Positions 3 through 17,879 of a stretch of 24,000 nt of DNA are shown here, one piece after another; the first letter of the stretch is position 1, and the number at the start of each line of letters is the position of its first letter. Under the pieces are notes generated by a model that saw nothing but the letters and a program-made list of their open reading frames with translations, ran no database searches and was not told where the DNA came from. Source of the stretch: Virgibacillus sp. SK37 (GTDB lineage Bacteria; Bacillota; Bacilli; Bacillales; Amphibacillaceae); contig NZ_CP007161.1 in assembly GCF_000725285.1 (NCBI RefSeq), positions 581,911 to 605,910 of the forward strand, given 5' to 3'. The position numbers and the translations under genes are program-made.

Positions 3-530
3 CATTTATATTTAAAGGATCAGGGATATAAGCAGGAGTGTACTTATTTTAACCTTGAAGAAAATTCAATAAAAAAAGGGTTTGACGGTTACTACTCCAA
101 AGATGATATAGAATGGATCATGGAGAGTAAATCAGGAAGTATAGATAGTAATAATAGTAAACACTGGAATAAAGTAAAAACGGCATACGATGATTTGAAA
201 GATAAGTTCAATGGAAATGTTACAAATAACCCTTGGAAAAATGCATATAATCATGCATCACAAATTGATGTGGGGACGGAACAAAATATAAGGAAAAATA
301 TTAAAATGCTATCAGATAATTTTACTAGGAAAAATTACCCTTTAATTAGTGATTTTAATATTATTCCAGCATCAACAATTTTTTTGAATGGTCAATGGGA
401 GAACCAAGACCTTGATGAATTGAGCGATAAGATTGTTGAACTAATTTCTGAGTTTAAATATAAAGATATAATTATAATTTGTATTACAAAGAAATCAGTT
501 GAACAATTTTTGAATTTCATTAATTCCTAA
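3..530 (+). CDS. 3' part of a small PD-(D/E)xK nuclease-like protein (5' end off-window); candidate Hachiman HamA-like partner of the downstream helicase
   Basis: The frame is open from nt 3 with no stop, so the ORF-track Met at 120 is internal and the gene is truncated by the window edge. GFDG (D at 84-86) followed 12 residues later by E-S-K (123-131) is spaced like a D...ExK nuclease core. Same strand as the DEAH helicase, 88 nt upstream of it. Confidence 0.45.
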   Translation, partial: HLYLKDQGYKQECTYFNLEENSIKKGFDGYYSKDDIEWIMESKSGSIDSNNSKHWNKVKTAYDDLKDKFNGNVTNNPWKNAYNHASQIDVGTEQNIRKNIKMLSDNFTRKNYPLISDFNIIPASTIFLNGQWENQDLDELSDKIVELISEFKYKDIIIICITKKSVEQFLNFINS

Positions 531-617
531 AATGGGGGGAGAAATATTAATAGAACAGAGAAGTCAAAACTAACAAACATAAATAAGATTAATGAATTTA
601 ATGAAGTAATCAAGAAG

Positions 618-3005
618 TTGACTATTAACACGGAACTAACTAATGAAGAAAAAAGCTATATTTTAGGTTGTGCAATATTATTTATAAAACATTTTGAATC
701 AGACCGGCGATATACAAGTTATTTAGAGTTTGCTTATTACATTATTTTAAAATATTCCATAAGTTACGAAGACTATTCACCTCTATACGATTTTTCAATT
801 AACTTTGGCTTTTATCCAATTGCAAAGGATGTAATTAATTATAATTTATTAGGGAATCAACTCAGTTTACACGATAGTCTGCAGGAATTAAAAATTGATA
901 ATTTCTCAACTAAGAATTATATTGAGACGTACCAACAAAAAGAAGTAAGAAGAAACTTATTAAATGATGATTCACAAAATATAAGTTATGTAGCCCCTAC
1001 ATCCTTCGGAAAAAGTTCACTTATTATAGAGCATATTCTGAATAATGGTCATTATAAAAAAATAGGGATTATTGTTCCTACTAAATCTCTTTTAATCCAG
1101 ACTTATAGATCCATAAGGGAATCAAATATATACAGAAGGATTTTAATTCACGATGAAATGTATAAGAATGATGAAAAATTCATAGCAATTTTCACTCAGG
1201 AAAGAGCGCTCCGATTATTAGACAAAAATAATGTATTCTTTGACATATTATATATTGATGAGGCGCATAACTTGTTTGGAAAAGATTCTAGAAATATTCT
1301 ACTTTCAAGATTAATTCGAAGGAACAGATTGCTTAATCATAACCAGAAGACTATATATTTATCGCCATTGATATCTGACAGTGACAACCTAAAGATAAAC
1401 GAGCAGCAGGAAGGTATTAGTGAACAAAGGATATCCAATAACTTAAAGGAACCTGAGATTTTTGAATATAGGTTATCAGGAAAAGCATTCCAATATAATA
1501 GATTTGTAAATGAATTTTACCAACTCAGTAATTCAGCTAACAGCCTCACCTATATAAAACAAAATAAAGGGCAGAAAAATTTTATTTATATTAGATCTCC
1601 TAGAAAAATAGAAATGTTTGTTAAAGAATTTGCTTCAACCATAGATAATATAAATGATGAAGACACCAGTATTAACGAATTAATCGTAGAACTAGAAAAA
1701 TTTGTTCATAAAGATTTCTTTATGATAGAACTACTTTCTAAAGGTATTATTTATTTACATGGCAAAATGCCTGATATAGTTAAGGAGTTTTTGGAATATA
1801 AGTTTAATAGAATTAACAATCTTAAATATGTGGTTGCTAATAGTGTAATATTAGAAGGAATTAATTTACCGATTGACACACTTTTTATATTAAATACATA
1901 TAACTTAAATGGTAAAGAACTTACTAATTTAATGGGTAGAGTTAATAGGCTCAACAATATCTTTAATGGATTTTCAAATGAGTTACATAGGTTACTCCCC
2001 CCCATACATTTCGTTAATACAGAAACTTATAATAGAATAAATAGTAAAATGGAAAATAAAATAAAAAGTTTAAGAAGTAATATATTTGAGGATAAAATTG
2101 AGAATCCAACATTAGAATCTTTTGATTTTGAAAAATTAAAGATAGACCAAGATAGAAGGGTAGAGGCAGAAGAAAGATTTAATAGAATAAAAGAAAATGA
2201 GGATATATTATTTAATAATAAAGATGATAAAATCAGCCAATTAAAGAGGTATTTAATTAATTCTGGATTGGAGAGTATGTATGACATTAGAAATGATGAA
2301 TTCTTAAATCAGTTACTAATGAAGATTAATAGATTTGAAAAGCAGCAAACTACTGAATGGTTAGAATTGGATATTATAGACAAAATAAATTCAGTATTTA
2401 TTGAGGACTTAGAAAAATATATTATTGACTTTGAGTTTGCTAGGCTGTCTAATTCACAGGCTAGGAATTACTACAAAATGTACTTATTCAATTTTCGGAC
2501 ATACTCATTAAAAGATAATATTATTGCAACTTTTAATTATTTCAAGAAGAGAGTAAGTAAAGGAAATAGTCTATTTTATATAGGAAATTCATATGGCGAA
2601 GAAAGTAAGCAAACTGACAACTATTCGGATAGAAATAAAGAAGTTTATGTAGATTTATCAAATAAGACAGATCCAGAAATAATTAATTTAGCTATTGTTA
2701 AAATGAAAATTGAAGAAGACTTCATCAACTACCAGTTAAATAAATTGGTTGTTGCACTGTACGATTATTCTTTAATTTCTCAGGATGAATATCATTTAGC
2801 TATATATGGAACTAATGATGAAAAAAAGATTAACTTGATCAAAACAGGATTGTCTTTAAATTTAATTACTAGACTTCAAAAAGATAACCAACTTAAAAAT
2901 ATTCATTTGGATATAAATAATAATTTAGTAACAGACTTAGAATTTGAAAACTATAGAAGTACGATGCAGGGACTTTATCGATTTGAATTGGATAAATTCC
3001 TATAA
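618..3005 (+). CDS. SF2 DEAH-box helicase, 795 aa; candidate Hachiman HamB-like helicase
   Basis: Walker A APTSFGKSS (GKS 1008-1016), motif II YIDEAHNL (DEAH 1257-1268), motif VI-like NLMGRVNRL. The TTG at 618 is the first start-like codon after an in-frame TAA (528-530). A strong GGGGGGAG at 534-541 has no canonical start codon behind it, so the true start is uncertain. Confidence 0.6.
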   Translation: MTINTELTNEEKSYILGCAILFIKHFESDRRYTSYLEFAYYIILKYSISYEDYSPLYDFSINFGFYPIAKDVINYNLLGNQLSLHDSLQELKIDNFSTKNYIETYQQKEVRRNLLNDDSQNISYVAPTSFGKSSLIIEHILNNGHYKKIGIIVPTKSLLIQTYRSIRESNIYRRILIHDEMYKNDEKFIAIFTQERALRLLDKNNVFFDILYIDEAHNLFGKDSRNILLSRLIRRNRLLNHNQKTIYLSPLISDSDNLKINEQQEGISEQRISNNLKEPEIFEYRLSGKAFQYNRFVNEFYQLSNSANSLTYIKQNKGQKNFIYIRSPRKIEMFVKEFASTIDNINDEDTSINELIVELEKFVHKDFFMIELLSKGIIYLHGKMPDIVKEFLEYKFNRINNLKYVVANSVILEGINLPIDTLFILNTYNLNGKELTNLMGRVNRLNNIFNGFSNELHRLLPPIHFVNTETYNRINSKMENKIKSLRSNIFEDKIENPTLESFDFEKLKIDQDRRVEAEERFNRIKENEDILFNNKDDKISQLKRYLINSGLESMYDIRNDEFLNQLLMKINRFEKQQTTEWLELDIIDKINSVFIEDLEKYIIDFEFARLSNSQARNYYKMYLFNFRTYSLKDNIIATFNYFKKRVSKGNSLFYIGNSYGEESKQTDNYSDRNKEVYVDLSNKTDPEIINLAIVKMKIEEDFINYQLNKLVVALYDYSLISQDEYHLAIYGTNDEKKINLIKTGLSLNLITRLQKDNQLKNIHLDINNNLVTDLEFENYRSTMQGLYRFELDKFL

Positions 3006-3144
3006 AGATTTTAATGTGATTTTTTCCCTAAAGGAAAATAAATTTATGAAATTATGGCTTTCTATTATCTTCAGTATTTTCAATAAGAATTGTTTAAAAA
3101 ATTGGAATAGAGATTTACAAACTTTTTATTTGGGAGTCATTTAA

Positions 3145-6100
3145 ATGGAATTAATTAATTTTTTGGATAATAGAATTCAAGATGCAGTAAGACCCTACCA
3201 ATTAGATGCATTGGATAATATTAACCGCTATCTATACAGTGATTCTAACAAACAAGCTCTAATCAAGATGCCAATGGGAACAGGAAAAACAGTAATTATC
3301 GCAATAGCAGCTGCATTTTTCCCACATATCAAAAATTGTTTAGTAGTAACAAGCTCATCTGCAGTAAAAGAACAGCTTATAAAGGATATAAAAATAGGTG
3401 TTTGGAGCAATTTAAGTGTCCCCTTTTGTCCAATAAAACCTGTAGTCGAGTTATTACCGTCAGATTCAGGTAGGATTAACACTGATCAACACCCAACAAT
3501 ATATGTATGTACGGTTCAATCCTTGCTAAGAATTAAACAAGAGAATAATAGTAATTATAACTTATTAAAAAATAAATTGGATTTAGTTATATTTGATGAA
3601 GGGCATAAAGAACCAGCACAACAATGGCAAGCTACAATTAGAGAGCTAGAGGCTAAAGTAGTACTGTTTTCAGCTACTCCTGTCAGGAATGACTTGAATA
3701 AATTTTCAATAGATAATCAATTTGTATTTACGTATTCTTTTATTGATGCTGTTAATCAAGGTTATGTGAAAGATGTAATTTTTTCCATAATAGATTCAAC
3801 GACAATTTCAAACTCACAAAGGGTAGGTGAGTTTGTATCATACATTAATAATTCATTAGAGAGTTACGTTAATGAATATGATTGTGACAGAGATGAAGTA
3901 AAAGTAATTATAAGGTGTAATACAGATGAAGAGATTGAAATGCTAGTTGATGAATTAAATAACCGAGGATTAAAAGCAAAAGGAGTACATGAAAAATTTG
4001 CACAAGCAAATTCGAAATTACTTCAAAATGTACCTAGTGATTTACGAAGCGATGACACAGTATGTTGGGTTCATCAGTATAAACTGGTTGAAGGAATAGA
4101 TAATTATAAATTTTGTATTCTTGGTATCTATCAAGCGCTTCCTGACCCTCGTTCATTTGTTCAACAAGTAGGAAGAGTTATTAGAAAAAGAAATATAGAC
4201 ATAAATCAAAGTGCAAAAATCATTGTCTGGGATCATCAAGATTACCAATTACAATGGTGGGATTCTTATTTTAATTATGAAAGAGCTATAAGTGATGGAG
4301 AGACAGATACTGTTTTTAGTTTTTCTGAATACTTTTCGAATTTGTTAACAATTAGCCCTTCTGTTATGTATTTAAACAAGAAATATTTAAAACGATACTC
4401 AGTGGAAGAAGATATTAATAATCTATTTAAACTAGAGAAATACCAACTTCCAAAGAAAACAAACATATATGAGAGTCATTTAGAAGAATTTGATATTAAT
4501 AGTGTATTTACTAAAACAATAGATGCTATTCATAATGAATTAATATTAAGAGATAACAATATTCTCGATAAAATAGTAATTAATGAAAACCATACAGTTT
4601 GTTTTATTTATGCACATTATTATAATAGTCCGTATTTAACAAAGGAAGTATTACTAGAGCAAAAAATAGGGATATTAATTTTTAGAATTATAGAAAAAAC
4701 TTTATTCCTATATGATACTACAAATTTTACTCCAGAGCATATAAAGGAAGAATGGAAGAGAATTTCGGCTCTGAAATTAAAAAAACTTTTTGATAGAGAT
4801 ACATCATTTTCGTCAGCTACTATTCAAAATGGTAGTATAAATTTTAATCATTTTAATAGAATGGTTCTATATTCAGACGACATTGCACAGATGGCTCCAA
4901 GCATATCAGATCAATATAACTTCCTTACTACAGTCCAAAGTAAAAAAAGTAATTTAAGTGGACAATCATCATTAAGAAGGTATGTAGGGTTTTCAAATGC
5001 GCGAATTAGTCAGGCTTCCACAATGACTAGACTGGATCTGTATATAGATTGGCTAGACCAACTTTATCACTCTTTATATAGAGAAGGTGATGATCATACA
5101 TTTTTTCAAAGATATGCACCTGTAACTGACATACCGGAAGAGACAGAGCCAGTGAGCATACTGTTACAATTTGAGGGTAATGAATTAATTCAAGATTCTG
5201 TTGGGACTCTAATTGAATTAGACAGTAATTTTTATAGAATTACAGATAGAGTTTTTTACTTAAAATATATGCAAGAAGAATATGAGGTAGAGATAACATT
5301 TAATACAATTAAAGGCGAATATAATTTGCAATTTAGGAATGAAGAAGACGAACCAGACATCTTTTATGGAAAGCAACGAATATTAAATTGGCTGAATGAT
5401 AACCAGTCATTTCAACTTCTTTTAAATCAAAATGAATATCGTTATTTTAAGGGATATTTTTATAAGCTCGGTGTGCCAAGAAATTACGGTGGTCTATTAA
5501 ATTATCTTGATGAGAACAGCATTCAACTGTCAGCAAGAACTAAAATTAATGAAAAAGGAAAATTTTATAAGGATGGATCACCACAACCCAATACAGCAAT
5601 TTGGGATAAAAATTCTTTGTTTTATTTAGTTGCTAAAAAAGGAATAAATATAAATAATAATTCAAAATTAAAAAGATTATTGCAGGATTCTGATTATGTT
5701 ATTTGTACTGATTTAAATAGTGAGATAGCAGATTTTATAACTGTAAGTGAGTCAACGAACACAGTTTGTTTTATCCATTGTAAAGCTGGAAAAAGCAAGC
5801 TTTCAGCCTCTGCTTTTCAAGAGGTTTGCGGCCAAATATTGAAAAATTTAGACTACGTAAATGATGTGAGTAATAGGTTACCTGTTGATTTAGAAAGATG
5901 GAATGGTATTTGGACACATCGTAGTTATAGAGCTGTAGTTAATAGACGAATAATCAATCCTGATAATATATCTTCTGAAGATATCTGGAATAAACTTAAA
6001 GAAATTCAAACTAACCCAGATTCAACAACAAATGTAATTGCGCTTGTAGGAGATGCATTTTCCAAGGAAACATATGATCGTGAAAGCAGAAAGCCGTGGG

Positions 6101-6210
6101 GTAGACAAAAACCCGAAAAAATACAGATAGATTATATACTGCTTGAAACCGCATTAGCAGTAGAGCGATCTCAAGCAAAATTTTTAGTCTCATACACAAA
6201 AAAAGTGTAA
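3145..6210 (+). CDS. 1021-aa DExH (ResIII-like) SF2 helicase with a large unassigned central region and a restriction-endonuclease-fold-like C-terminus
   Basis: RPYQLDAL, Walker A MPMGTGKT (3277-3291), FDEGH (DEGH 3595-3606), SATP, QQVGRVIRK. C-terminal ADFITV (D at 5731-5733) ...VCFIHCKAGK (H-C-K 5776-5784) resembles the D...(E/Q)xK core of Mrr/NERD-type nucleases. GGGAG lies 8 nt before the ATG. No convincing terminator in the 139-nt gap to the upstream helicase. Confidence 0.6.
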   Translation: MELINFLDNRIQDAVRPYQLDALDNINRYLYSDSNKQALIKMPMGTGKTVIIAIAAAFFPHIKNCLVVTSSSAVKEQLIKDIKIGVWSNLSVPFCPIKPVVELLPSDSGRINTDQHPTIYVCTVQSLLRIKQENNSNYNLLKNKLDLVIFDEGHKEPAQQWQATIRELEAKVVLFSATPVRNDLNKFSIDNQFVFTYSFIDAVNQGYVKDVIFSIIDSTTISNSQRVGEFVSYINNSLESYVNEYDCDRDEVKVIIRCNTDEEIEMLVDELNNRGLKAKGVHEKFAQANSKLLQNVPSDLRSDDTVCWVHQYKLVEGIDNYKFCILGIYQALPDPRSFVQQVGRVIRKRNIDINQSAKIIVWDHQDYQLQWWDSYFNYERAISDGETDTVFSFSEYFSNLLTISPSVMYLNKKYLKRYSVEEDINNLFKLEKYQLPKKTNIYESHLEEFDINSVFTKTIDAIHNELILRDNNILDKIVINENHTVCFIYAHYYNSPYLTKEVLLEQKIGILIFRIIEKTLFLYDTTNFTPEHIKEEWKRISALKLKKLFDRDTSFSSATIQNGSINFNHFNRMVLYSDDIAQMAPSISDQYNFLTTVQSKKSNLSGQSSLRRYVGFSNARISQASTMTRLDLYIDWLDQLYHSLYREGDDHTFFQRYAPVTDIPEETEPVSILLQFEGNELIQDSVGTLIELDSNFYRITDRVFYLKYMQEEYEVEITFNTIKGEYNLQFRNEEDEPDIFYGKQRILNWLNDNQSFQLLLNQNEYRYFKGYFYKLGVPRNYGGLLNYLDENSIQLSARTKINEKGKFYKDGSPQPNTAIWDKNSLFYLVAKKGININNNSKLKRLLQDSDYVICTDLNSEIADFITVSESTNTVCFIHCKAGKSKLSASAFQEVCGQILKNLDYVNDVSNRLPVDLERWNGIWTHRSYRAVVNRRIINPDNISSEDIWNKLKEIQTNPDSTTNVIALVGDAFSKETYDRESRKPWGRQKPEKIQIDYILLETALAVERSQAKFLVSYTKKV

Positions 6211-6373: not shown

Positions 6374-7798
6374 GGTTCTCAGTCAAATGTGGTGGTGTGA
6401 TTTTCACTCCACCATCTCTTTTATTAAAAAGCCTTTGCTTAAATAGCTGCGTACGTATATTGGTTGCCGTTTCTATTGTGTCAAAACCCTTCTAACCTCT
6501 TGTCGCCACAGTATTTTCTTTTTTAATCGATTAAAATTTTTAATTCCATACGACATTCGTTTTGCCACTTTAATTGTATTATTTACGCCTTCAATATATC
6601 CATTATTAAAAGGATACATAAAGGAATGCAAGATCTCTTGCTTCCACCGCTCAAATGTTTTTCTTACTCTATGAAAAGACTCAATATTAGAATCCTTCAT
6701 CGCCATTAAACATCCTTCTAGACCCTGTGTAGCGGTCTTTTCGTTACTCTCTTTAAACCACTGATCAAGTTTGTTTTTTAGGTTGTATGCCTCTTCTAAT
6801 CGAGGATCAACCTGGAGTAACTGATTTACTTTCTCTCGCTCTTCTTCTGATAATTTATAGGTTGATTTCCAAAGTAACTTTTTACTTTTTTTCATATATA
6901 TCCGGTCTTTTTTCTCTAAGTCTCTTTGCACTTCTCGACGTACTTCATCTAGCGCCCAATATACTTGCCGCATAAAATGAAATCGATCAGCGATGATCAG
7001 TGGGTTACCAAGCGCCTTCCGTATTGCTTGCTTAAAAGACTTAGAAAGGTCCATGACGACAATCTCTACGTTACTTGTATCACAGGACTGAAGATAAGCT
7101 TTAATTGTATCTACCTTCCGATCAGGTAAGACATCCACAATCTCTTTATTTTCTACATCCGCAATGACCGTTTGAAACCTTTCACCGCCCGCATCCCCTT
7201 TAAATTCATCAATAGCTAACGCACGTGGCAGGACTTTCCTTGTTTTTATTTCTTTTCGATCATAAATACGAAGTAACCGTTGCGAACTCATCCCAGTTAA
7301 CTGGGCAGCTGTAGTAAATGAGCCCACAGCTGTATACGTTAGCGCTGTCGTTTGTATAGAACGGGTGCAACGTTGGTATCGTTCCACCATCTGAAGCTTT
7401 TCATAAAACGTATGATTACACGCCTTACATAAGTAGCGTCTCTTTTTCAAAGAAATACTAACTGGTTTATTGGAAACAATGGGCCCCTGAATCGTTTGGG
7501 TACGATAGCCGTGGATACTTTTTGTCCTATTGCCACAAAACGGGCACTTCTGCTTCTTTACTTTTGTATATAGCTCTACAAAAAACTTAGCTGAGTCACT
7601 AGAAACTTCCCATACATCTACATGTTTGTCTTCAATACCTAACATTTCTATGATAAAATGGTTTTGCACTCTTTCCCTCTCCTTTTCCTTTTGTGTCGCA
7701 ACTTTAGGTTAACAAAAGAGAGGGGAATGAGTGTATTTTTTTGTTTCTTACGGAAACACTGATCCTCCAAAGGAGACCACCACATTTAGTATAGAGCC
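6374..7798 (-). mobile_element. ISL3-family insertion sequence (1425 bp), complete
   Basis: Imperfect terminal inverted repeats: GGTTCTCAGTCAAATGTGGTGGT at 6374 versus the reverse complement of the right end, GGCTCTATACTAAATGTGGTGGT, ending at 7798 (17 of 23 identical by hand count). Perfect 8-bp direct target duplication TATTTAAA at 6366-6373 and 7799-7806. Single transposase ORF inside. Confidence 0.9.
6473..7669 (-). CDS. ISL3-family transposase (398 aa)
   Basis: N-terminal zinc finger CPFCG...CKACNHTF, followed by an HTH region and a DDE-type body typical of ISL3 transposases. Flanked by the IRs and target duplication described for the element. Confidence 0.85.
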   Translation of the reverse strand: MQNHFIIEMLGIEDKHVDVWEVSSDSAKFFVELYTKVKKQKCPFCGNRTKSIHGYRTQTIQGPIVSNKPVSISLKKRRYLCKACNHTFYEKLQMVERYQRCTRSIQTTALTYTAVGSFTTAAQLTGMSSQRLLRIYDRKEIKTRKVLPRALAIDEFKGDAGGERFQTVIADVENKEIVDVLPDRKVDTIKAYLQSCDTSNVEIVVMDLSKSFKQAIRKALGNPLIIADRFHFMRQVYWALDEVRREVQRDLEKKDRIYMKKSKKLLWKSTYKLSEEEREKVNQLLQVDPRLEEAYNLKNKLDQWFKESNEKTATQGLEGCLMAMKDSNIESFHRVRKTFERWKQEILHSFMYPFNNGYIEGVNNTIKVAKRMSYGIKNFNRLKKKILWRQEVRRVLTQ

Positions 7799-7816: not shown

Positions 7817-8344
7817 ATGATAGTAGAACTTAAAAGAGCAGGTGAGCTTGGAAAAAAGGCATTTTTTAATCATTTAAATCGCAACTATGCGATAGGAATG
7901 CTAAAAACTAATATGGGAGAAAAATATTTTTATTCTACCTGCCAGATACAAAGTAAGGATGCATATAATAATTTTAAGGACAAAGTTGAAAAACATAAAA
8001 AATACATGTGGAATAATATGATTAATGATTTGTATTATGCAACTCCACCTTTCTTGTTTAATTATGTAAATGTGGACCGGTCAAGAGGAATTCGTACTCC
8101 CCATTCATGGAGTAGAGAACAAGACAGTGAAAGTGTTATCTTAGAGAAAATTAGTAAATATATGTTTGATAATAGATTGTATGATTGTAAAGTATTCATA
8201 TATTCACAAAAGGAGCCATGTTTAAACTGTGAAACAGTTTTCCAACAGTTTATTGAGAGGCACCCATTAACGAATCTAACAATATTTTATCATGAAACCA
8301 ACTATAAGCAGTTACCCTCAAAGTATAATTGGAGATTTAAATAG
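7817..8344 (+). CDS. 3' portion (175 codons from an internal Met) of an IS-disrupted deaminase-fold-like protein, possibly a toxin
   Basis: KEPCLNCE (PCxxC 8216-8230) is preceded 28 residues earlier by D-S-E (8123-8131), at the start of a helix-like stretch where deaminases carry H/C-x-E. The beta-strand-like FIYSQ and LTIFY context fits a deaminase fold. No SD precedes the ATG at 7817, and the frame is open upstream to the IS end. Confidence 0.35.
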   Translation: MIVELKRAGELGKKAFFNHLNRNYAIGMLKTNMGEKYFYSTCQIQSKDAYNNFKDKVEKHKKYMWNNMINDLYYATPPFLFNYVNVDRSRGIRTPHSWSREQDSESVILEKISKYMFDNRLYDCKVFIYSQKEPCLNCETVFQQFIERHPLTNLTIFYHETNYKQLPSKYNWRFK

Positions 8345-8347
8345 GAT

Positions 8348-8878
8348 ATGGAAATTAATAAAAATTTAATTAAAAATATTAAAAAGATAGAAGAAGAAAT
8401 AAAACTAGAGAACTTGTTTACTGCTGAAGAATTAATTGATTTAACTAAATCAAATTTAAAAGATAACTTGGAACTTTATAATAACGAGTACATTAAATCA
8501 ATTGACAGAACGATTGATGATTTATACTTGTTGTACTCTGAAAGTGTAAAAACACGATATTTATTAATTGCTACCTGTACATTTAGTTTATTAAAACATT
8601 ACGAAACTGAAATTTTTATTTCTTTTCAAGAAAATAATGCATCAAACAAGCGCAAGTCTAAATCAATTAGAACCTTTTTTAAGGAAGTTTCCGATTTGGA
8701 ATTTGGGAATATAGAACTAAGATCATACAATAATAATATTCTTCTAAATGATAACTTACCACCAACATATGTTTCCGAATATATTATTAAGCTTACGGAA
8801 GAATTGTTCTTTCTTATGCCATTAAAAATGAGTGAGGGGTTTAAAGAACTAAACTCAAAGATTTTACAAAAAATATAA
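8348..8878 (+). CDS. Hypothetical 176-aa helical protein, tightly coupled to the deaminase-like gene; candidate immunity/antitoxin partner
   Basis: ATG lies 3 nt after the upstream stop (8342-8344). No recognisable catalytic motif. The genomic arrangement resembles toxin-immunity pairs. Confidence 0.3.
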   Translation: MEINKNLIKNIKKIEEEIKLENLFTAEELIDLTKSNLKDNLELYNNEYIKSIDRTIDDLYLLYSESVKTRYLLIATCTFSLLKHYETEIFISFQENNASNKRKSKSIRTFFKEVSDLEFGNIELRSYNNNILLNDNLPPTYVSEYIIKLTEELFFLMPLKMSEGFKELNSKILQKI

Positions 8879-9238: not shown

Positions 9239-9565
9239 ATGACCCTGAAAGACAAAAGAATAGAATGGAAAGCGCGCTATAATGCCTGGAAAGATAGTGG
9301 CAAGAATATTGCTGAATGGTGCCGTGAACAAGAAATCAATGCTCATCCTATGTATTACGGGGTGCGGCAGTTTGAAACCGAACAGGTTTCGCTAGAATCG
9401 GAGTCCACTCAATGGCTGTCAGTCCAATTAGAAGAAGAATCCCTTTCTTCAGAAGGACAAGGGCCGATCTTTATTCATAAGGATTCTCTCTCGGTAGAAG
9501 TACGGCCAGGAGCTGATATGGGCTTACTATCCGATATCATGCATCTTTTACATAAGCAATGCTAA
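9239..9565 (+). CDS. tnpA: IS66-family accessory protein TnpA (108 aa, HTH-like)
   Basis: First ORF of the IS66 unit. Its stop overlaps the tnpB start (ATGCTAA at 9559-9565). Confidence 0.8.
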   Translation: MTLKDKRIEWKARYNAWKDSGKNIAEWCREQEINAHPMYYGVRQFETEQVSLESESTQWLSVQLEEESLSSEGQGPIFIHKDSLSVEVRPGADMGLLSDIMHLLHKQC

Positions 9566-9915
9566 CCAATACCTCTTATGATCGAGTTTATCTAGCCCGT
9601 GGGAGTACTGATCTTCGAAAGTCCATTGATGGATTAGCGGTCATCGTGAAAGAATGTTTTGACCTGGATCCCTTTTCTCCCAGCCTCTTCGTATTCTGTA
9701 ATCGAAAACGGGATAAGTTGAAAATCCTACAGTGGGAACACAATGGGTTTTGGCTTCATTACCGTAGGTTGGAACGGGGAACTTTTCATTGGCCCTCCGA
9801 GAAAGACGCTTCCCCTATGGATGTCAGTCCGCGCCAACTTCGTTGGTTATTGGATGGTTTGTCTCTAGAACAGAAAAAGGCCCACCATGAAGTAAAAGCC
9901 CGTACCATTCTATAA
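9559..9915 (+). CDS. tnpB: IS66-family Orf2/TnpB (118 aa)
   Basis: RVYLARGSTDLRKSIDGLAVIV...FVFCNRKRDKLKIL...GFWL is the characteristic IS66 Orf2 sequence. Translationally coupled to tnpA. Confidence 0.85.
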   Translation: MLTNTSYDRVYLARGSTDLRKSIDGLAVIVKECFDLDPFSPSLFVFCNRKRDKLKILQWEHNGFWLHYRRLERGTFHWPSEKDASPMDVSPRQLRWLLDGLSLEQKKAHHEVKARTIL

Positions 9916-9982
9916 AAGAGTGAAAGATATAAATACGAGAATTCGACTAGTCAAGTCGGATTCTTTTTCGTATACTTAATCT

Positions 9983-11560
9983 ATGAAAACGAACGAAGGA
10001 AAATCCAACAAATCAATTGAATATTACATGGAGCGCACGGAAACGTTAGAAATGGAGAATGAAGCGTTGGAAGCGAAACTAAAATGGTATGAAGAACAAT
10101 TTCGACTCAGCCAACAGCGCCAATTCGGATCTTCCAGCGAGAGAATTCACCCGGATCAACTCTCCCTTTTTAACGAAACGGAGGTAACAGCTGATTCGGC
10201 TGTTGAGGAGCCCTCGGTCGAGACGATTACCTACAAGCGCAAAAAGCAAAGTGGCCAGCGAGATAAGCAACTGGAGAACCTGCCGAAGGAAACGATTGAG
10301 TATCGTTTATCCGATGAGGAACAGGTCTGTTCGTGTTGCCAAGGTTCTCTCCATTCGATGAGCACGGAAGTGCGCAGAGAATTAAAAGTGATCCCCGCCC
10401 AAGTGAAAGTGGTGGAGCATGTACGTCATGTTTATAGTTGTCGTTATTGCGAGCGAAATGGCATACAAACACCTATCGTGACAGCAAGTATGCCAGAACC
10501 TGTATTTCCGGGAAGTCTGGCATCTCCATCTGCTATTGCTTATACCATGAACCAAAAGTATGTAGAGAGCATGCCTCTGTATCGGCAGGAGAAACATTGG
10601 GAACGCTTTGGCATTTCCATTCCACGGCAGACATTGGCCAATTGGATTACTTATGGGGCCAGCACCTGGCTCTCCCTTATTTACGAACAACTGCACACAC
10701 ATCTTTTAAACCAGGATAGCCTCCATGCGGATGAAACAACGCTGCAGGTTCTTTCCGAACCGGAACGCCCTGCCACGTCGACATCCTATATGTGGTTGTA
10801 TCGCACAGGAAGCGAAGGTCCGCCTATTGTTTTGTATGATTACCAGCAGACACGAGCAAGCAAGCATCCACGTCGCTTTCTAGATGGCTTTCAAGGATAC
10901 CTGCATGTCGATGGGTATGCTGGTTACAACGGCCTTCCCGGAGTAACGCTGGTTGGATGTTGGGCACATGCGCGCCGTAAATTTACTGATGCCCTCAAGG
11001 CATTACCTGAAAATGCGAGCACGACCAACTTGAAAGCGAAAGAGGGACTTGCCTTCTGTAATCAGCTGTTTAGCATTGAACGAGAATTAAAAGACGTCTG
11101 TGCTGACGAACGTTATAAAAAACGATTAGAGCGCAGCCAGCCAGTGCTGCAGGCTTTTTCAACATGGCTACGTGAACAGACACCACGCGTTCTGCCTAAA
11201 AGCGCTCTTGGCCAAGCAATCAAGTATTGTCGTAATCAATGGGATCGTTTAGGAGGATTCCTTAAGGATGGTCGTTTGGAAATCGATAACAATCGTGGAG
11301 AACGTTCCATTAAACCCTTCGTTATAGGAAGGAAAAACTGGTTGTTCAGTAATACAGCCAAAGGGGCAACCTCCAGCGCAATTGTTTATAGTATTGTGGA
11401 AACTGCAAAGGAAAATGGACTGAACCCATTTCATTATCTGGAATACTTATTTGAGAAGCTTCCCAATATGGATTACACAAACAGTGAAGACTTAAATCAG
11501 TTTCTGCCTTGGTCACCGACAATTCCGGAGGAATGTAGGGTCCCTAATAAAACTAAATAA
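9983..11560 (+). CDS. tnpC: IS66-family DDE transposase TnpC (525 aa)
   Basis: Leucine-zipper N-terminus, [12 protein letters not shown], zinc finger CSCC...[14 protein letters not shown] and CWAHARRKF blocks typical of IS66 transposases. Confidence 0.9.
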
Positions 11561-11964: not shown

Positions 11965-12525
11965 ATGATTGATAAATTCAAGGATTTTATTATAAGTGTA
12001 CTAGCCTCTTTAGTAGCTACATTTTTAACCACATATGCTTACCATTTTATACAGATTGGGAAGGCTTTAGACTTCAGGGGATTTATAAATATAGTTATTA
12101 ACTACACATACTTAGTATATTGGATATTATTATTATTACTGGTGATTATTGTTCGTTGGTTTATAAGAACTAGAATTGATAAGTTACAAATACCCTATCC
12201 TATGGTAAGGAGTATAGGAAGTCGCTATGATTTAGAATACAGTGGAGAAGGGTATGGATTCAAGTGGAAGATATATGCGGATACTAAACGTAAAGATCCA
12301 TTTTCTAATGAAATAATGGATATAAATGTAGGTAGAGTAGATGGCCCCTATTGTAAAAATGATTATAGAAGAATGATAGTATCAAGAACATATTTTGGAA
12401 GGTATAGATATAAGTGTCCTAAATGTGGTTATAAAAGAATCCTATTAAAAAATATTTGGACACTTGAGTGTGATATTGAAGATGAAATTGAGGCTAAATA
12501 TAGGGCTAAGGTTAATACCATATAA
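11965..12525 (+). CDS. Hypothetical membrane protein (186 aa): two N-terminal TM helices plus a Cys-knuckle C-terminal domain
   Basis: Hydrophobic segments FIISVLASLVATFLTTYAYHFI and TYLVYWILLLLLVIIVRWFI. C-terminus is GPYC-x20-CPKCG-x16-C. No enzymatic motif recognised. Confidence 0.55.
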   Translation: MIDKFKDFIISVLASLVATFLTTYAYHFIQIGKALDFRGFINIVINYTYLVYWILLLLLVIIVRWFIRTRIDKLQIPYPMVRSIGSRYDLEYSGEGYGFKWKIYADTKRKDPFSNEIMDINVGRVDGPYCKNDYRRMIVSRTYFGRYRYKCPKCGYKRILLKNIWTLECDIEDEIEAKYRAKVNTI

Positions 12526-12707
12526 AAATTATGCTCATAATTGTTTGGAAGGTAACAAGGAAAAACCACCTAATCCATGTATAGAAATATGGGCTGTATG
12601 TTAACTATAAAAACATCATTAGTTCAGGCGGAAGATTAACACTAATACAGTGTACTTATGTTTTTATTTTTCATTACAAAGACTGAGCATTGAAAGGAGT
12701 TCACCCA

Positions 12708-14312
12708 TTGATAGAAAAAGTAATTATTAAAAACTATAAATCTATTGATTATCTAGATTTAAAATTAGACGACACAATAAATATTCTTGTTGGTAATAAT
12801 GAACAAGGAAAATCTACTATATTAGAAGCCGTTAATTTAGCACTAACTAGTACATTAAATAAGAGAAATATACATAATGAACTAAATCCATTTCTTTTTA
12901 ATAAGACTGTTGTTGAAGATTACATAAAAAACATTAGTAAAAATAAGCGTGTAATCCCACCTAGCATACTTATAGAAATATATTTAAAGGAAGATAATCA
13001 GAATGCATCTTTGAAGGGGTCAAACAATTCAATTAAAGAAAATGCATGTGGCATTAGTTTTTCCATAGAATTTGATGATGACTACACTGAAGAATATCAA
13101 CAATACATAGAACAATCGACTAATATAAGAAATATACCGATAGAGTATTATAAAATTAATTGGTATTCCTTTGCATCTAATCCAATAACTTCACGAAGCA
13201 ATCCTATTAAATGTGTATTAATTGATCCAACGGAAGGAAAGGCATGGAACGGAACAGACAGGTATATTTCAAGTGTAATTGGTGATACCCTAGACCCTAA
13301 ACAGCGCGCAACTTTAAATTTTAATTTTAGGGATATTAAAGAGAATTTCTCTCAAGTTGAATCTATATCAAAGATTAATAGTACACTCTCTAAAAAAACA
13401 GGTGATATCTCAGATAAAGAACTTGCTATTTCTCTAGATATATCTCAAAAGAATGGATGGGAATCCAATTTGACTGCTTATCTGGATGATATACCTTTTG
13501 ATTTCATTGGGAAAGGTGAGCAAAACTCGGTAAAATTGAAGTTATCACTCGAATCAAATGCTGAAGAGGCTCAAGTAATCTTAATTGAAGAACCAGAAAA
13601 TCACTTATCTCATTCAAATATGCAAAAATTAATTAATCAAATCTCCGAAAAATGTGAAGGGAAACAGTTAATAATTACAACACATAGTACTTACGTTTTA
13701 AATAAACTTGGTTTAGATAAAGTAGTATTGATGAATAATGGAAAACACATAACATTAAGAGATTTAAATGAGGATACTTATAATTATTTTAAAAAGTTAC
13801 CCGGTTACGATACACTTAGATTATTGCTAGCTGATAAGGCTATTTTAGTAGAAGGCCCATCAGATGAGTTAATTGTTCAAAAGGCATATCTTCAAAAACA
13901 TAATAGGCTTCCTATCGAAGATGGTATAGATATTATTACTGTAAGAGGATTATCATTTAAGCGCTTTCTTGAGATAGCTGATCTTCTAAATAAAGAGGTT
14001 GCTGTTGTTACCGATAATGATGGAGACATTGTTAAGCACATTATTGAAAAATATGGTGATCATTACCTAAAACATCCAACAATCAAAATTTGCTATAGTG
14101 ACGACACGAGATATGCAACGTTAGAACCACAGTTGGTATCAGCAAATGAGTTATCTATATTAAATGATATTTTAGGGAAGGATTATACATCAGAGGCTGA
14201 GCTTATTAAATTTATGACAAGTTCAGGTAATAAAAGTGAGTGTGCAATGCGTATTTTTGATTCAAACCAAAAAATTATTATACCGGGGTATATAAATGAT
14301 GCAATTCAATAA
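12708..14312 (+). CDS. gajA: Gabija GajA: OLD-family ATPase-TOPRIM endonuclease
   Basis: N-terminal ABC/AAA ATPase (IKNYKSI...LVGNNEQGKST; Walker B VILIEEPENHLSH; TTHS). C-terminal TOPRIM (ILVEGPSDE ... VVTDNDGD). Immediately followed by, and overlapping, a UvrD-like gene. I prefer the TTG at 12708 (AAAGGAG 8 nt upstream) over the track start at 12690. Confidence 0.85.
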   Translation: MIEKVIIKNYKSIDYLDLKLDDTINILVGNNEQGKSTILEAVNLALTSTLNKRNIHNELNPFLFNKTVVEDYIKNISKNKRVIPPSILIEIYLKEDNQNASLKGSNNSIKENACGISFSIEFDDDYTEEYQQYIEQSTNIRNIPIEYYKINWYSFASNPITSRSNPIKCVLIDPTEGKAWNGTDRYISSVIGDTLDPKQRATLNFNFRDIKENFSQVESISKINSTLSKKTGDISDKELAISLDISQKNGWESNLTAYLDDIPFDFIGKGEQNSVKLKLSLESNAEEAQVILIEEPENHLSHSNMQKLINQISEKCEGKQLIITTHSTYVLNKLGLDKVVLMNNGKHITLRDLNEDTYNYFKKLPGYDTLRLLLADKAILVEGPSDELIVQKAYLQKHNRLPIEDGIDIITVRGLSFKRFLEIADLLNKEVAVVTDNDGDIVKHIIEKYGDHYLKHPTIKICYSDDTRYATLEPQLVSANELSILNDILGKDYTSEAELIKFMTSSGNKSECAMRIFDSNQKIIIPGYINDAIQ

Positions 14313-15414
14313 CAAAGTTATTATTGCTGCAGCAGGTTCAGGAAAATCATCAGATCTAGTTGAAAAAGCATTGAAAAATAATGACAAAAGGATATTGATA
14401 ACAACATTTACAATAGATAATACAAAAGAAATTGAGAAAAAGTTTTTTGATAAAATTGGATATGTCCCTAAGAATGTTGTGGTTCAAACATGGTATTCCT
14501 TCCTACTAAGAGAATGTGTAAGGCCTTATCAAAACTTCTTATACGATAAAAAAAGAATTGAAAATATAAAATTTGTTAATGGTCAATCTACACTATATAT
14601 AGCTAAAACGGAAGTTGAAAAGTACTATTTTCGTGATGGAAAATATATTTATACTGACAAGTTGTGTGATTTCGTGCTTGAGGTTAATAAAATATCAAAC
14701 GGTTTGGTTATTGATCGATTAGAGAGTATATATGATATCCTAATGGTAGATGAGGTACAGGATCTAGCTGGAACAGATTTAGATTTTCTATATTTATTAT
14801 TAAAATCTAATATACATAACATTATAGTTGGAGATAACCGACAGGCTACCTACTTCACTAATAATTCAAGGAAAAACAAAAAATATAGGGGACAAACCAT
14901 TTTTGACTTGTTTAGTGATTGGCAGAAGGAAGGCTTCTGTTCTATTGTTTATAAGACAGAATGTTTCCGATGTAACCAATTAATCTGTGATATAGCAGAT
15001 TCACTTTATCCCCAAATGCCTAAAACAAATTCCATGAATGATATGGAGACTGGACACGATGGTGTTTTTTACATTCGAAGCAGTGAAGTTCTTGAATATG
15101 CAAAAAAATATTCTCCTGTTGTATTGAGATATGATAAAAGGACTAAGAATATACCAGATAATTTTACACCTTTAAATTTTGGAAAGTCTAAAGGATTGAC
15201 GTTTGATAGAGTCTTTATTTATCCAAATGGACCTATTCATAAATTTTTAAAAGGTAATTATGAGGCTATTAGTAGTCCAAAAACTAAAGCAGGCTTATAT
15301 GTTGCTTTAACAAGAGCGAGGTTCAGTGTTGCGTTTGTAACTGACCAAAAGGTAATTTCAAATGAGTTTGTTGAAGAATTCACTCTAAGAGATAGTGAAG
15401 GAATGACTGTTTAA
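14296..15414 (+). CDS. gajB: Gabija GajB: compact UvrD/PcrA-like SF1 helicase (372 aa)
   Basis: Walker A AAAGSGKSS, MVDEVQDL, GDNRQAT, FGKSKGLTFDRV, LYVALTRAR. The start overlaps the gajA stop by 17 nt. Confidence 0.8.
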   Translation: MMQFNNKVIIAAAGSGKSSDLVEKALKNNDKRILITTFTIDNTKEIEKKFFDKIGYVPKNVVVQTWYSFLLRECVRPYQNFLYDKKRIENIKFVNGQSTLYIAKTEVEKYYFRDGKYIYTDKLCDFVLEVNKISNGLVIDRLESIYDILMVDEVQDLAGTDLDFLYLLLKSNIHNIIVGDNRQATYFTNNSRKNKKYRGQTIFDLFSDWQKEGFCSIVYKTECFRCNQLICDIADSLYPQMPKTNSMNDMETGHDGVFYIRSSEVLEYAKKYSPVVLRYDKRTKNIPDNFTPLNFGKSKGLTFDRVFIYPNGPIHKFLKGNYEAISSPKTKAGLYVALTRARFSVAFVTDQKVISNEFVEEFTLRDSEGMTV

Positions 15415-17699: not shown

Positions 17700-17879
17700 T
17701 ACATAGATTTACATCAGTGGGATATAAAAAGCCAAGGGTCTAGTGTCTCTATTAGAAGTGCCGATCGGCGCACTATAATTTGTTATCATGTTAACTTTGT
17801 TAATTGTTATTATAGTCGCTAAGTTGCGCTACGCGTAATTTTGAGAAAGTACTCCCTCTACTCTAAAATGAGGATAGTT
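17700..17879 (+). ncRNA. Candidate retron msr-msd non-coding RNA (boundaries approximate)
   Basis: Non-coding spacer directly upstream of the RT with locally GC-rich, structured sequence in an AT-rich island. It holds the perfect palindrome GCCGATCGGC (17760-17769). It also holds a longer hairpin of 17767-17779 with 17809-17820 (ACTATAAT/ATTATAGT plus a GCG/CGC extension with one bulge), and GCGCTACGCGT at 17826-17836. I could not find convincing a1/a2 repeats by eye. Confidence 0.35.

What the first reader, a model, noticed from the sequence alone, without database searches (positions are those of the whole stretch)
3145..6210. Unassigned 1021-aa DExH helicase with nuclease-like tail, apparently co-transcribed with the Hachiman-like pair
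Seen: the first ~380 aa carry complete SF2 motifs (GTGKT, DEGH, SATP, QQVGRVIRK). About 450 residues with no motif I can place follow. The C-terminus has D863...H878-C-K880 in a beta-strand context (ADFITV / VCFIHCK) that resembles the Mrr/NERD restriction-endonuclease core, but with His where E/Q is expected. The gene has its own SD, lies 139 nt after the first helicase, and I see no convincing terminator between them. Inference, two options: a stand-alone helicase-nuclease defence protein (an architecture I recall for Hna-type proteins), or a third component making a two-helicase Hachiman derivative. I do not recognise either as a described system, so this is my best candidate for a novel helicase-based defence component.
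Basis: partly seen in the sequence, partly recalled or inferred. Interest (0 to 1): 0.7.

Follow-up and report, generated by a model that had tools for sequence, protein, structure and literature searches.

The report
Stand-alone helicase-nuclease phage-defence candidate (PDC-S71)
This gene encodes a 1021-residue motor protein with a probable DNA-cutting tail; it belongs to a large, untested family already flagged by computer as a single-gene anti-phage candidate, and it sits beside the neighbouring Hachiman-like system because defence genes cluster, not because it is part of that system.

Summary
ORF 3145-6210 (+) encodes a 1021-aa protein of Virgibacillus sp. SK37 with a complete N-terminal SF2 (ResIII/XPB/SauUSI-like) ATPase core, about 450 unassigned residues, and a tail with a conserved D...H-x-K motif.

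The protein is not unknown to databases. Residues 441-995 match the PADLOC candidate family PDC-S71 (E 1.7e-34). This is a computational "phage defence candidate", and I found no paper that discusses it.

The family is large (about 1,300 clusters at 50% identity), spans many phyla, and keeps a fixed architecture of about 1000 aa. It occurs on plasmids and in a prophage. Its neighbours are variable defence systems: Gabija, type I R-M, Lamassu, Shedu, Avs2 and McrBC.

Only 3 of 45 non-redundant loci have a HamB-like gene directly upstream. The closest relatives of the window's HamB-like pair lack the gene. It is therefore a stand-alone gene, not a third Hachiman component.

It is not Hna. It has a different helicase clade and shows no sequence match to the Hna structure.

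The tail fits the PD-(D/E)XK strand order with near-invariant D856, E860, D863, K880 and Q897. Support from fold and profile searches is weak. The central region weakly resembles RdgC-like DNA-binding proteins.

The most likely function is an ATP-driven DNA translocase-nuclease. It is untested.

The parts
3132..3136 (+). Shine-Dalgarno GGGAG, 8 nt upstream of the ATG. Homology to the Oceanobacillus picturae copy begins just upstream, at 3126.
   Evidence: Sequence read. blastn boundary 3126-6210. Alignment of the junction.
3145..6210 (+). Complete ORF of 1021 aa, a member of the PADLOC candidate family PDC-S71.
3145..4299 (+). SF2 ATPase/helicase core (aa 1-385, two RecA-like lobes). Motifs: Q/RPYQ 16-19, I GTGKT 45-49 (nt 3277-3291), II DEGH 151-154 (nt 3595-3606), III SATP 176-179 (nt 3670-3681), VI QQVGRVIRK 340-348 (nt 4162-4188).
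   Evidence: Pfam ResIII/DEAD/Helicase_C. PDB profile hits to SauUSI 7clg (E 2.7e-18), UvrB and XPB. Foldseek hits to SF2 cores at E ~1e-11. Invariant motif residues.
4300..5634 (+). Central region (aa ~386-830) with no sequence-level family. The model shows two alpha/beta sheet domains (aa ~434-645) and a beta-rich domain (aa ~660-800). It may be an RdgC-like DNA-binding module.
   Evidence: AF2 models with pLDDT 85-87. No Pfam or PDB sequence hit. Foldseek against BFVD finds phage RdgC-like proteins (E 1.3e-4, prob 1.0, TM 0.30-0.36). Only weak PDB hits to RnlA, Whirly and TBP-like folds. The region is covered by the PDC-S71 model.
5635..6207 (+). C-terminal tail (aa ~831-1021), a putative variant PD-(D/E)XK nuclease. 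Conserved residues are C854-x-D856-x3-E860-x2-D863-F (nt 5704-5736), H878-x-K880 (nt 5776-5784) and Q897-x2-K900-N901 (nt 5833-5847).
   Evidence: Conservation in 120 sequences and alignment A4. The secondary-structure order is alpha 841-847, beta 851-854, beta 864-868, beta 873-879, alpha 888-900. Sub-threshold Pfam hits to HSDR_N_2 and RRG7 fall on the motif region. Weak Foldseek hits to CdiA-CT 4g6u, HincII, the HamA C-terminal domain and DUF2800.
546..3005 (+). Neighbour, not part of the system: a HamB-like SF2 helicase. The ORF is listed from TTG 618, but N-terminal conservation extends back to an ATT at 546.
   Evidence: PADLOC HamB at E 7e-41. 1,461 homologues. N-terminus comparison.
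3..530 (+). Neighbour, not part of the system: the C-terminal 175 aa of the ~256-aa partner of the HamB-like helicase, cut by the window edge. It has no DUF1837/HamA match.
   Evidence: Translation. 72% identity to the partner in B. thuringiensis locus L097. No PADLOC or Pfam HamA hit, even for the full-length orthologues.

Best explanation
The gene encodes a self-contained, single-polypeptide anti-phage defence candidate of the PDC-S71 family. It has an N-terminal SF2 DNA-dependent ATPase/translocase of the ResIII/XPB/SauUSI type, a central module that probably holds DNA (possibly RdgC-like), and a C-terminal variant PD-(D/E)XK nuclease that would act as the effector. The proposed mechanism is as follows. 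The protein engages DNA through the motor and central module. ATP binding or hydrolysis drives translocation or gates the enzyme. The tail, using D856/E860/D863 for metal binding and K880/Q897 for catalysis or positioning, then cleaves invading (or, in an abortive mode, any) DNA. The gene sits next to the Hachiman-like pair because defence genes accumulate in the same low-GC island. In this window it may be read through from that operon, but it does not depend on it. What is shown: family membership, fixed architecture, motif conservation, defence-island and mobile-element context, and lack of a conserved partner. What is inferred: DNA as substrate, nuclease activity, how the ATPase couples to the nuclease, the trigger, and defence activity itself.
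For: PADLOC PDC-S71 match at E 1.7e-34 over 551 of 589 model positions. Complete SF2 motifs, invariant in 41 homologues. The helicase core is closest in PDB sequence to the ATP-dependent restriction enzyme SauUSI, then to UvrB, XPB and HsdR. The C-terminal module is found almost only fused to this helicase, in ~1000-aa proteins, across 1,300 cluster representatives. Immediate neighbours in 45 non-redundant loci match many different defence families: type I REase, PDC-M01B, HamB, SduA, LmuA/B and GajA. Further neighbours include Avs2, Lamassu, McrBC, an SLFN helicase, AIPR and bacterial HORMA. No neighbour family is conserved by all-vs-all BLASTP. Homologues occur on 33 plasmid records, 17 of them conjugative, and in a Mycobacterium prophage beside integrases. 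The window itself is a dense island at 26-30% GC against 35-38% in the flank. It holds a Hachiman-like pair, this gene, IS elements, a deaminase toxin, Gabija and a retron I-B. The homologous segment shared with O. picturae is exactly SD plus ORF, so the gene behaves as a discrete module. Tail: near-invariant D856, E860, D863, K880 and Q897 are placed on a beta-beta-beta-alpha order that fits the PD-(D/E)XK core. All weak profile and fold hits on the motif region belong to that superfamily.
Confidence: 0.6

Rival explanations
1. The gene is a third, accessory component of the upstream Hachiman-like system (a two-helicase Hachiman derivative). It would be co-transcribed and functionally dependent on it.
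For: It is on the same strand, 139 nt downstream, with no detectable terminator or promoter in the gap. In O. picturae the 87%-identical copy lies 35 nt after a HamB. In a Holdemania MAG (L051) a HamB C-terminus 43% identical to the window's lies just upstream of a homologue. That makes 3 of 45 loci, all in the order HamB then X.
Against: 42 of 45 non-redundant loci have no HamB among their nearest neighbours. The closest HamB-like pairs (72% and 69% identity) have no such gene downstream. The partners do not co-vary. X is 87% identical between Virgibacillus and O. picturae while their HamBs are 27% identical. Conversely, the window and L051 HamBs are 43% identical while their X copies are ~24% identical. 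About a third of loci have a divergently oriented upstream gene, so X must have its own promoter there. The only described three-gene Hachiman uses HamC, a DUF3223 protein (PMC8565338). The tail shows no profile similarity to HamA or to the HamA-like partner.
Confidence: 0.1
2. The tail is not a nuclease. The protein defends, or acts, without cutting. For example, it could be a translocase that strips or blocks phage replication or recombination proteins, or an RdgC-like clamp that interferes with recombinases. The conserved tail residues would then serve binding or regulation.
For: There is no significant nuclease-family hit by sequence or fold. The canonical acidic position is His/Ala/Val. 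The best structural lead for the C-terminal half is RdgC-like proteins. From my own knowledge, RdgC binds DNA and inhibits RecA without catalysis.
Against: A near-invariant D/E/D...K...Q constellation across phyla, placed exactly on the beta2/beta3/alpha2 elements, is typical of an active site. Every weak hit on that stretch is a PD-(D/E)XK family.
Confidence: 0.15
3. It is a modification-dependent (type IV-like) or otherwise restriction-type ATP-dependent endonuclease. In this reading the beta-rich central domain reads a DNA modification, as the C-terminal reader domain does in SauUSI.
For: The helicase core's best PDB sequence match is SauUSI. TIGR04095 (dnd-associated restriction enzyme) gives a weak N-terminal hit. 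There is no adjacent methyltransferase in the window, which fits a type IV logic.
Against: There is no match to the SauUSI PLD nuclease or DUF3427 reader, and none to SRA, EVE or PUA-type domains. The similarity is confined to the generic SF2 core.
Confidence: 0.1
4. It is a housekeeping DNA repair or recombination helicase that happens to lie in a variable region.
For: XPB, UvrB and RadD are among the helicase matches. There is an RdgC-like structural lead.
Against: The distribution is patchy and the gene is carried on plasmids and a prophage. It has defence-system neighbours in most loci examined. It is frameshifted in O. picturae. It lies in a low-GC island.
Confidence: 0.05

Closest known systems
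PADLOC candidate PDC-S71 (PDLC05077)
   Same: Direct HMM match at E 1.7e-34, covering residues 441-995 and model positions 15-565 of 589. It is classed as a single-gene candidate, which agrees with the variable neighbourhoods found here.
   Different: The PADLOC model covers only the C-terminal module. In nearly all real proteins that module is fused to the ~420-aa helicase. PDC-S71 is a computational candidate with no published test or mechanism that I could find.
Hna (Sinorhizobium meliloti helicase/nuclease abortive-infection protein)
   Same: Both are single polypeptides with an N-terminal SF2 ATPase and a C-terminal PD-(D/E)XK-type nuclease, and both are found in defence contexts (PMC13381803).
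   Different: Hna is 845 aa with a DinG/XPD-like core and a reduced Arch domain, and its nuclease follows HEL2 after a linker. This protein has a ResIII/XPB/SauUSI-like core and an extra ~450-aa central region. No PDB sequence hit named Hna appeared at E <= 0.01. The only DinG-related signal is a weak N-terminal match (typeIV_DinG, E 9e-7, residues 16-82).
SauUSI and other ATP-dependent restriction enzymes (type I HsdR, type III Res, type ISP)
   Same: The ResIII-type SF2 motor is joined to a nuclease in one chain. SauUSI is the best PDB sequence match for the motor (E 2.7e-18). HsdR fragments match by fold.
   Different: The nuclease here is C-terminal and of a different family (SauUSI has an N-terminal PLD nuclease). 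There is no DUF3427 reader domain and no methyltransferase or specificity partner.
Hachiman (HamA nuclease + HamB helicase)
   Same: It uses a helicase-plus-nuclease logic, and it lies directly downstream of a HamB-like gene in 3 loci.
   Different: There is no HamA, HamB or HamC model match for this protein. The tail has no profile similarity to HamA. Most loci lack Hachiman.
RdgC (recombination-associated DNA-binding protein)
   Same: Foldseek matches the C-terminal 641-aa model to phage RdgC-like predicted structures over 250-340 columns (E 1.3e-4 to 1e-3, prob 1.0).
   Different: TM scores are low (0.30-0.36). There is no Pfam RdgC or PDB sequence hit. RdgC did not appear among the top 50 PDB Foldseek hits.

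Membership tests
PADLOC PDC-S71 candidate family | Significant match to HMM PDLC05077 over most of its length | tested here: met
   E 1.7e-34, 117.6 bits, residues 441-995 against model positions 15-565 of 589
PADLOC PDC-S71 candidate family | Single-gene system with no obligatory partner gene | tested here: met
   No conserved neighbour in 45 non-redundant loci. Neighbours belong to many unrelated defence families.
PADLOC PDC-S71 candidate family | Confers phage resistance | not testable with these tools
   No paper in the library mentions PDC-S71. This needs plaque assays.
Hachiman (as a component) | Match to HamA (DUF1837), HamB or HamC (DUF3223) models | tested here: not met
   PADLOC gives only PDC-S71 and a weak typeIV_DinG hit for this protein. 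hhalign of the tail against HamA gives probability 0.2. The HamC definition is from PMC8565338.
Hachiman (as a component) | Consistent co-occurrence with hamAB | tested here: not met
   A HamB-like gene is upstream in 3 of 45 loci. The closest HamB-like pairs lack the gene.
Hna | DinG/XPD-like SF2 core with reduced Arch domain | tested here: not met
   Pfam and PDB matches are to ResIII, XPB, UvrB and SauUSI. None of the 42 hit names at E <= 0.01 in the PDB sequence search was Hna. The Hna description is from PMC13381803.
Hna | C-terminal PD-(D/E)XK nuclease with P-D...E-x-K (D713/E727/K729 in Hna) | tested here: inconclusive
   An analogous D863...H878-x-K880 is present, but with His in place of Glu and without a significant family hit.
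PD-(D/E)XK (restriction-endonuclease-like) superfamily, including Mrr/NERD | [quoted passage not shown] | tested here: inconclusive
   The AF2 secondary-structure order and motif placement fit. Model coordinates could not be inspected. Foldseek hits to CdiA-CT, HincII, HamA-C and DUF2800 are all non-significant.
PD-(D/E)XK (restriction-endonuclease-like) superfamily, including Mrr/NERD | Profile match to a member family (NERD, Mrr_cat and others) | tested here: not met
   No NERD or Mrr_cat hit. Only sub-threshold HSDR_N_2 (3 of 34 tails, best E 0.024) and RRG7 (E 0.08).
Type III / type I restriction-modification | ResIII-type motor subunit | tested here: met
   PF04851 at E 3.3e-20
Type III / type I restriction-modification | Cognate methyltransferase or specificity gene adjacent | tested here: not met
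   No methyltransferase ORF flanks the gene in the window, and none recurs in homologous loci.

The most novel reading that the evidence does not exclude
The PDC-S71 family could be a new class of one-chain immune enzyme. Its ~450-aa central module would be an RdgC-like DNA clamp that recognises phage replication or recombination intermediates and licenses a variant (His-x-Lys) PD-(D/E)XK nuclease. In addition, the gene could move as a promoter-less SD-plus-ORF cassette that plugs in behind other helicase-nuclease operons so that it is co-expressed with them. Hachiman precedes it in 3 loci, and Gabija lies within 8 kb in 4 Bacillus-type loci. That would be a modular 'second layer' rather than a random neighbour.
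Probability: 0.12. Interest if true: 0.7.

Novelty: new variant of a known kind. Interest (0 to 1): 0.42.

Why it matters
Single-chain helicase-nuclease proteins such as Hna, Nhi and SauUSI are an emerging theme in bacterial immunity. Each family studied so far has shown a different way of sensing infection. This family is large (about 1,300 clusters at 50% identity), crosses many phyla, and rides on plasmids and prophages. About 60% of its length has no recognisable sequence family or solved structure. The Virgibacillus copy is intact and comes from a Bacillus-type host, so it could be tested directly in B. subtilis. A positive result would turn a PADLOC candidate into a validated system and would expose a new central module and nuclease variant. 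A negative result would help to prune the candidate lists that many surveys now count as defence.

Tried and rejected
1. Hna membership is rejected: different helicase clade, different length, and no sequence hit.
2. The fused-Hachiman idea (tail homologous to HamA) is not supported by sequence: hhalign of the tail profile against HamA and against the window-type partner gave probabilities of 0.1-0.2. The only hint is a Foldseek E of 0.09 to a HamA C-terminal domain.
3. HamC / type II Hachiman is rejected, because HamC is DUF3223.
4. Search for a conserved partner gene: all-vs-all BLASTP of 114 nearest neighbours from 45 loci found none.
5. Sequence-level annotation of residues 385-830 and 822-1021 gave nothing significant. 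I tried Pfam per member at E <= 1 and PDB profile searches at E <= 10.
6. Foldseek of the C-terminal model against PDB gave no hit at E <= 1e-3. The full-length model gave only generic SF2 cores.
8. The promoter/terminator scan and RNA fold of the 139-nt gap were uninformative, so co-transcription is neither shown nor excluded.
9. A look-up of the window's own contig to see the full upstream partner failed, because the protein is not on record.
10. The Rfam scan of the window returned nothing.
11. Literature searches for 'PDC-S71' and for RdgC plus helicase plus defense island returned nothing.
Full report
**Observation**

The ORF at 3145-6210 (+) is real. It starts with ATG and encodes 1021 aa. 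It is preceded by GGGAG at 3132-3136 and lies 139 nt after the stop of the upstream helicase gene. The protein is identical to a 'DEAD/DEAH box helicase' of Virgibacillus sp. SK37.

Pfam recognises ResIII (15-181, E 3e-20), DEAD and a weak Helicase_C (248-348), and nothing beyond residue ~350. NCBIfam gives only weak N-terminal hits to a dnd-associated restriction enzyme, XPB and RecQ.

**What it is**

PADLOC-DB v2 matches residues 441-995 to PDC-S71, a single-gene 'phage defence candidate', at E 1.7e-34 over 551 of 589 model positions. The full-text library has no paper that mentions PDC-S71. The family is therefore catalogued, but as far as I can see it is neither tested nor described.

- A whole-protein search found 42 homologues of ~1000 aa at 24-60% identity, mainly in Bacillaceae and Bacteroidota.
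- A search with the C-terminal 581 aa alone found the same architecture again and again. The few short hits are fragments.
- A profile of the C-terminal module against 1.84 billion cluster representatives found 1,300 proteins (990 at E <= 1e-10). Nearly all are 960-1060 aa with the module at about 420-1000.
- A genome scan found full-length relatives in Bacillota, Bacteroidota, Actinomycetota, Alpha- and Betaproteobacteria, Acidobacteriota, Nitrospirota, Chloroflexota and Saccharibacteria.

The family is thus large, old or highly mobile, and architecturally fixed.

**Domains**

AlphaFold2 with the family alignment gave confident models: pLDDT 85.3 for the full length and 87.5 for residues 381-1021.

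*Helicase core.* Residues 1-385 form a two-lobe SF2 core. Foldseek finds eIF4A, FANCM, XPB, MrfA, RadD, HsdR and SauUSI at E ~1e-11, but no hit covers more than the core (TM normalised to the query <= 0.29). By sequence profile the closest solved protein is the ATP-dependent type IV restriction enzyme SauUSI (7clg, E 2.7e-18; identified through), followed by UvrB and XPB.

*Central region.* Residues ~386-830 have no Pfam or PDB sequence match, even at E <= 1-10 with a 15-member profile. Foldseek of the C-terminal model against PDB gave no hit at E <= 1e-3. The weak hits were RnlA, Whirly, TBP-like and DUF4468 folds. Against predicted viral structures, the best hits were phage 'RdgC' proteins (E 1.3e-4 to 1e-3, probability 1.0, 250-340 aligned columns) with low TM scores of 0.30-0.36. 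I treat an RdgC-like DNA-binding module as a lead, not a finding.

*Tail.* In the tail (~831-1021) the model's order of elements is helix 841-847, strand 851-854, strand 864-868, strand 873-879, helix 888-900.

- D863 sits at the start of the second strand, H878 and K880 at the end of the third, and Q897/K900 in the following helix. That is the layout of the PD-(D/E)XK core.
- Across 120 family members from many phyla, C854, D856, E860, D863, F864, K880, S887, Q897 and W923 are at least 96% conserved.
- H878 is conserved in 109 of 120 members and is Ala or Val in 10 (alignment).
- The canonical second acidic position is therefore dispensable, and D856/E860 are the better candidates for metal ligands. 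From my own knowledge, such relocation of the acidic residue is known in this superfamily, for example in Cfr10I and NgoMIV.

Independent support for the fold is consistent but weak:

- Sub-threshold Pfam hits fall on exactly this stretch, to HSDR_N_2 (3 of 34 tails, best E 0.024) and RRG7. By my recollection both belong to the PD-(D/E)XK clan.
- Non-significant Foldseek hits go to CdiA-CT 4g6u, HincII, a HamA C-terminal domain and DUF2800.
- There is no NERD or Mrr_cat hit.
- A tail profile finds nothing in PDB sequences.

**Stand-alone gene or Hachiman component?**

I examined 45 non-redundant loci with a full-length homologue.

- All-vs-all BLASTP of the 114 nearest neighbours found no recurrent partner.
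- PADLOC scans of those neighbours hit many different systems: type I REase in 3, PDC-M01B in 3, HamB in 2, Shedu SduA in 2, Lamassu LmuA/B in 2 and GajA in 2. Individual loci add Avs2, Lamassu, McrBC, an SLFN-type helicase, AIPR and bacterial HORMA.
- In about a third of loci the upstream gene is divergent, so the gene must carry its own promoter there.
- Homologues sit on 33 plasmid records, 17 of them conjugative. These include Bacillus megaplasmids and Escherichia, Klebsiella, Xanthomonas, rhizobial and Mycobacterium plasmids. One sits next to integrases in Mycobacterium prophage prophiT36-1.

All of this is the signature of an autonomous defence-island gene.

A HamB-like gene lies directly upstream, on the same strand, in three loci: the window, Oceanobacillus picturae (L014) and a Holdemania MAG (L051).

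- The O. picturae case is instructive. DNA homology with the window is confined to 3126-6210, that is SD plus ORF, at 88.6% identity with unrelated flanks. The HamB there is only 27% identical to the window's, and its HamA is a canonical DUF1837 protein.
- Conversely, the Holdemania HamB fragment is 43% identical to the window's, while its downstream homologue is only ~24% identical.
- The supposed partners therefore do not co-vary.
- The closest relatives of the window's HamB-like gene, in B. thuringiensis (72%) and B. altitudinis (69%), are two-gene modules followed by unrelated genes.
- The only described third Hachiman gene, HamC, is DUF3223 (PMC8565338).

I conclude that the adjacency is island clustering. 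Three same-order juxtapositions in 45 loci is somewhat more than I would guess from Hachiman's prevalence (my estimate, not computed), so I leave the accessory model at 10%.

In the window, co-transcription is possible. No terminator or promoter was detected in the gap, and the gap has no stable fold. This is not evidence of functional dependence.

**Comparison with known systems**

- Hna shares the general plan of an N-terminal SF2 and a C-terminal PD-(D/E)XK. It is an 845-aa DinG/XPD-like protein without the central region (PMC13381803), and none of the PDB sequence hits at E <= 0.01 was named Hna.
- Hachiman shares only the helicase-plus-nuclease logic. hhalign of the tail against HamA, or against the window-type partner, shows nothing.

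**Mechanism**

My committed reading, at confidence 0.6, is an ATP-driven DNA translocase whose C-terminal PD-(D/E)XK-like domain is the effector nuclease, with the central module holding or sensing DNA.

- Shown: family, architecture, conservation and context.
- Inferred: substrate, catalysis, coupling, trigger, and defence activity itself.

**Novelty and interest**

The gene is a member of a catalogued but uncharacterised candidate family. It is a new variant of the known helicase-nuclease kind, not a new category. It is a good experimental target because it is intact, comes from a Bacillus-type host, and is ~60% unassigned. A specialist would not be greatly surprised by it. Interest 0.42.

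**Surroundings**

The window from 1 to about 19,000 is a low-GC island (26-30% GC against 35-38% in the flank). In order it contains:

- a divergent Hachiman-like pair
- this gene
- an ISL3 transposase
- a deaminase toxin with a small downstream ORF
- an IS66 element
- Gabija
- a type I-B retron (ATPase-TOPRIM plus RT)

.

Noticed in passing
window 3-530 and 546/618-3005; L097 5215-8454; L099 5230-8448: The 'Hachiman-like pair' is divergent. The helicase matches HamB models only moderately (E 7e-41, against 4e-224 for a canonical HamB). Its ~256-aa partner has no DUF1837/HamA hit in Pfam or PADLOC, even for full-length orthologues. The partner does carry a D...E-S-K stretch (WIMESKSG) that could be a nuclease motif. 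The two-gene module is conserved at 69-74% identity in several Bacillaceae.
   Followed up: partly
window 528-620: The HamB-like ORF is listed and annotated from TTG 618 (795 aa), but homologues are 815-818 aa. Their N-terminal residues align with the in-frame translation upstream of 618. The position that aligns with the homologue's Met is an ATT at 546, just after a GGGGGGAG run. This suggests either a non-canonical start or a damaged start codon.
   Followed up: partly
L014 7745-10809 (Oceanobacillus picturae) versus window 4186-4191: The 87%-identical orthologue is split into 350-aa and 602-aa ORFs. The cause is a 1-nt deletion next to an A-run inside helicase motif VI (RVIRKRN). It is either a pseudogene or an assembly error. 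The Holdemania copy (L051) also looks broken (807 aa plus 181 aa).
   Followed up: partly
window 3126-6210 versus L014 7726-10809: Homology between the two genomes starts 19 nt before the ATG and ends exactly at the stop codon, and the flanks are unrelated. The gene behaves as a promoter-less SD-plus-ORF cassette in these two genomes.
   Followed up: partly
window 12690-14312 and 14296-15414: A compact Gabija system: GajA (540 aa, PADLOC E 4e-210) and a short GajB (372 aa, E 3e-127). An unassigned 186-aa ORF lies upstream at 11965-12525.
   Followed up: partly
window 15643-17643 and 17841-18881: A type I-B retron: ATPase-TOPRIM effector (PADLOC E 2e-182) followed by the RT (RT_I-B, E 4e-99). 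No Rfam retron RNA was detected in the window, so the msr/msd locus is not located.
   Followed up: partly
window 6473-7669 (-), 7817-8344, 8348-8878, 9239-11560: An ISL3 transposase begins 263 nt after the target's stop. A BURPS668_1122/APOBEC-like deaminase toxin domain protein (175 aa) follows, with an unassigned 176-aa ORF 4 nt downstream that may be its immunity protein. Next comes a complete IS66 element (TnpA, TnpB and transposase).
   Followed up: no
L001 3025-11039 (B. inaquosorum) and L099 3943-8448 (B. altitudinis): The same chromosomal spot, downstream of yyzF and a SPOUT methyltransferase, carries different cargo in the two species. One holds a 1234-aa unassigned protein plus the target's homologue. 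The other holds the HamB-like two-gene module. This is an apparent defence hotspot in the B. subtilis group.
   Followed up: no
L005 8001-14664 (B. cereus plasmid CP023246.1): The homologue is followed, 533 nt downstream on the same strand, by a second 1020-aa ResIII helicase. The two share only the N-terminal ~215 aa (30% identity). The second protein weakly matches PbeA and type IV REase models, and its C-terminal part is different and unexamined.
   Followed up: partly
L015 5382-7346 and L039 13088-15058: A 654-656-aa protein (Pfam Y4bO_3rd in one, no PADLOC hit) is a neighbour of the homologue in two distant genomes, B. albus and Herpetosiphon (37% identity). It lies once upstream and once downstream.
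   Followed up: no
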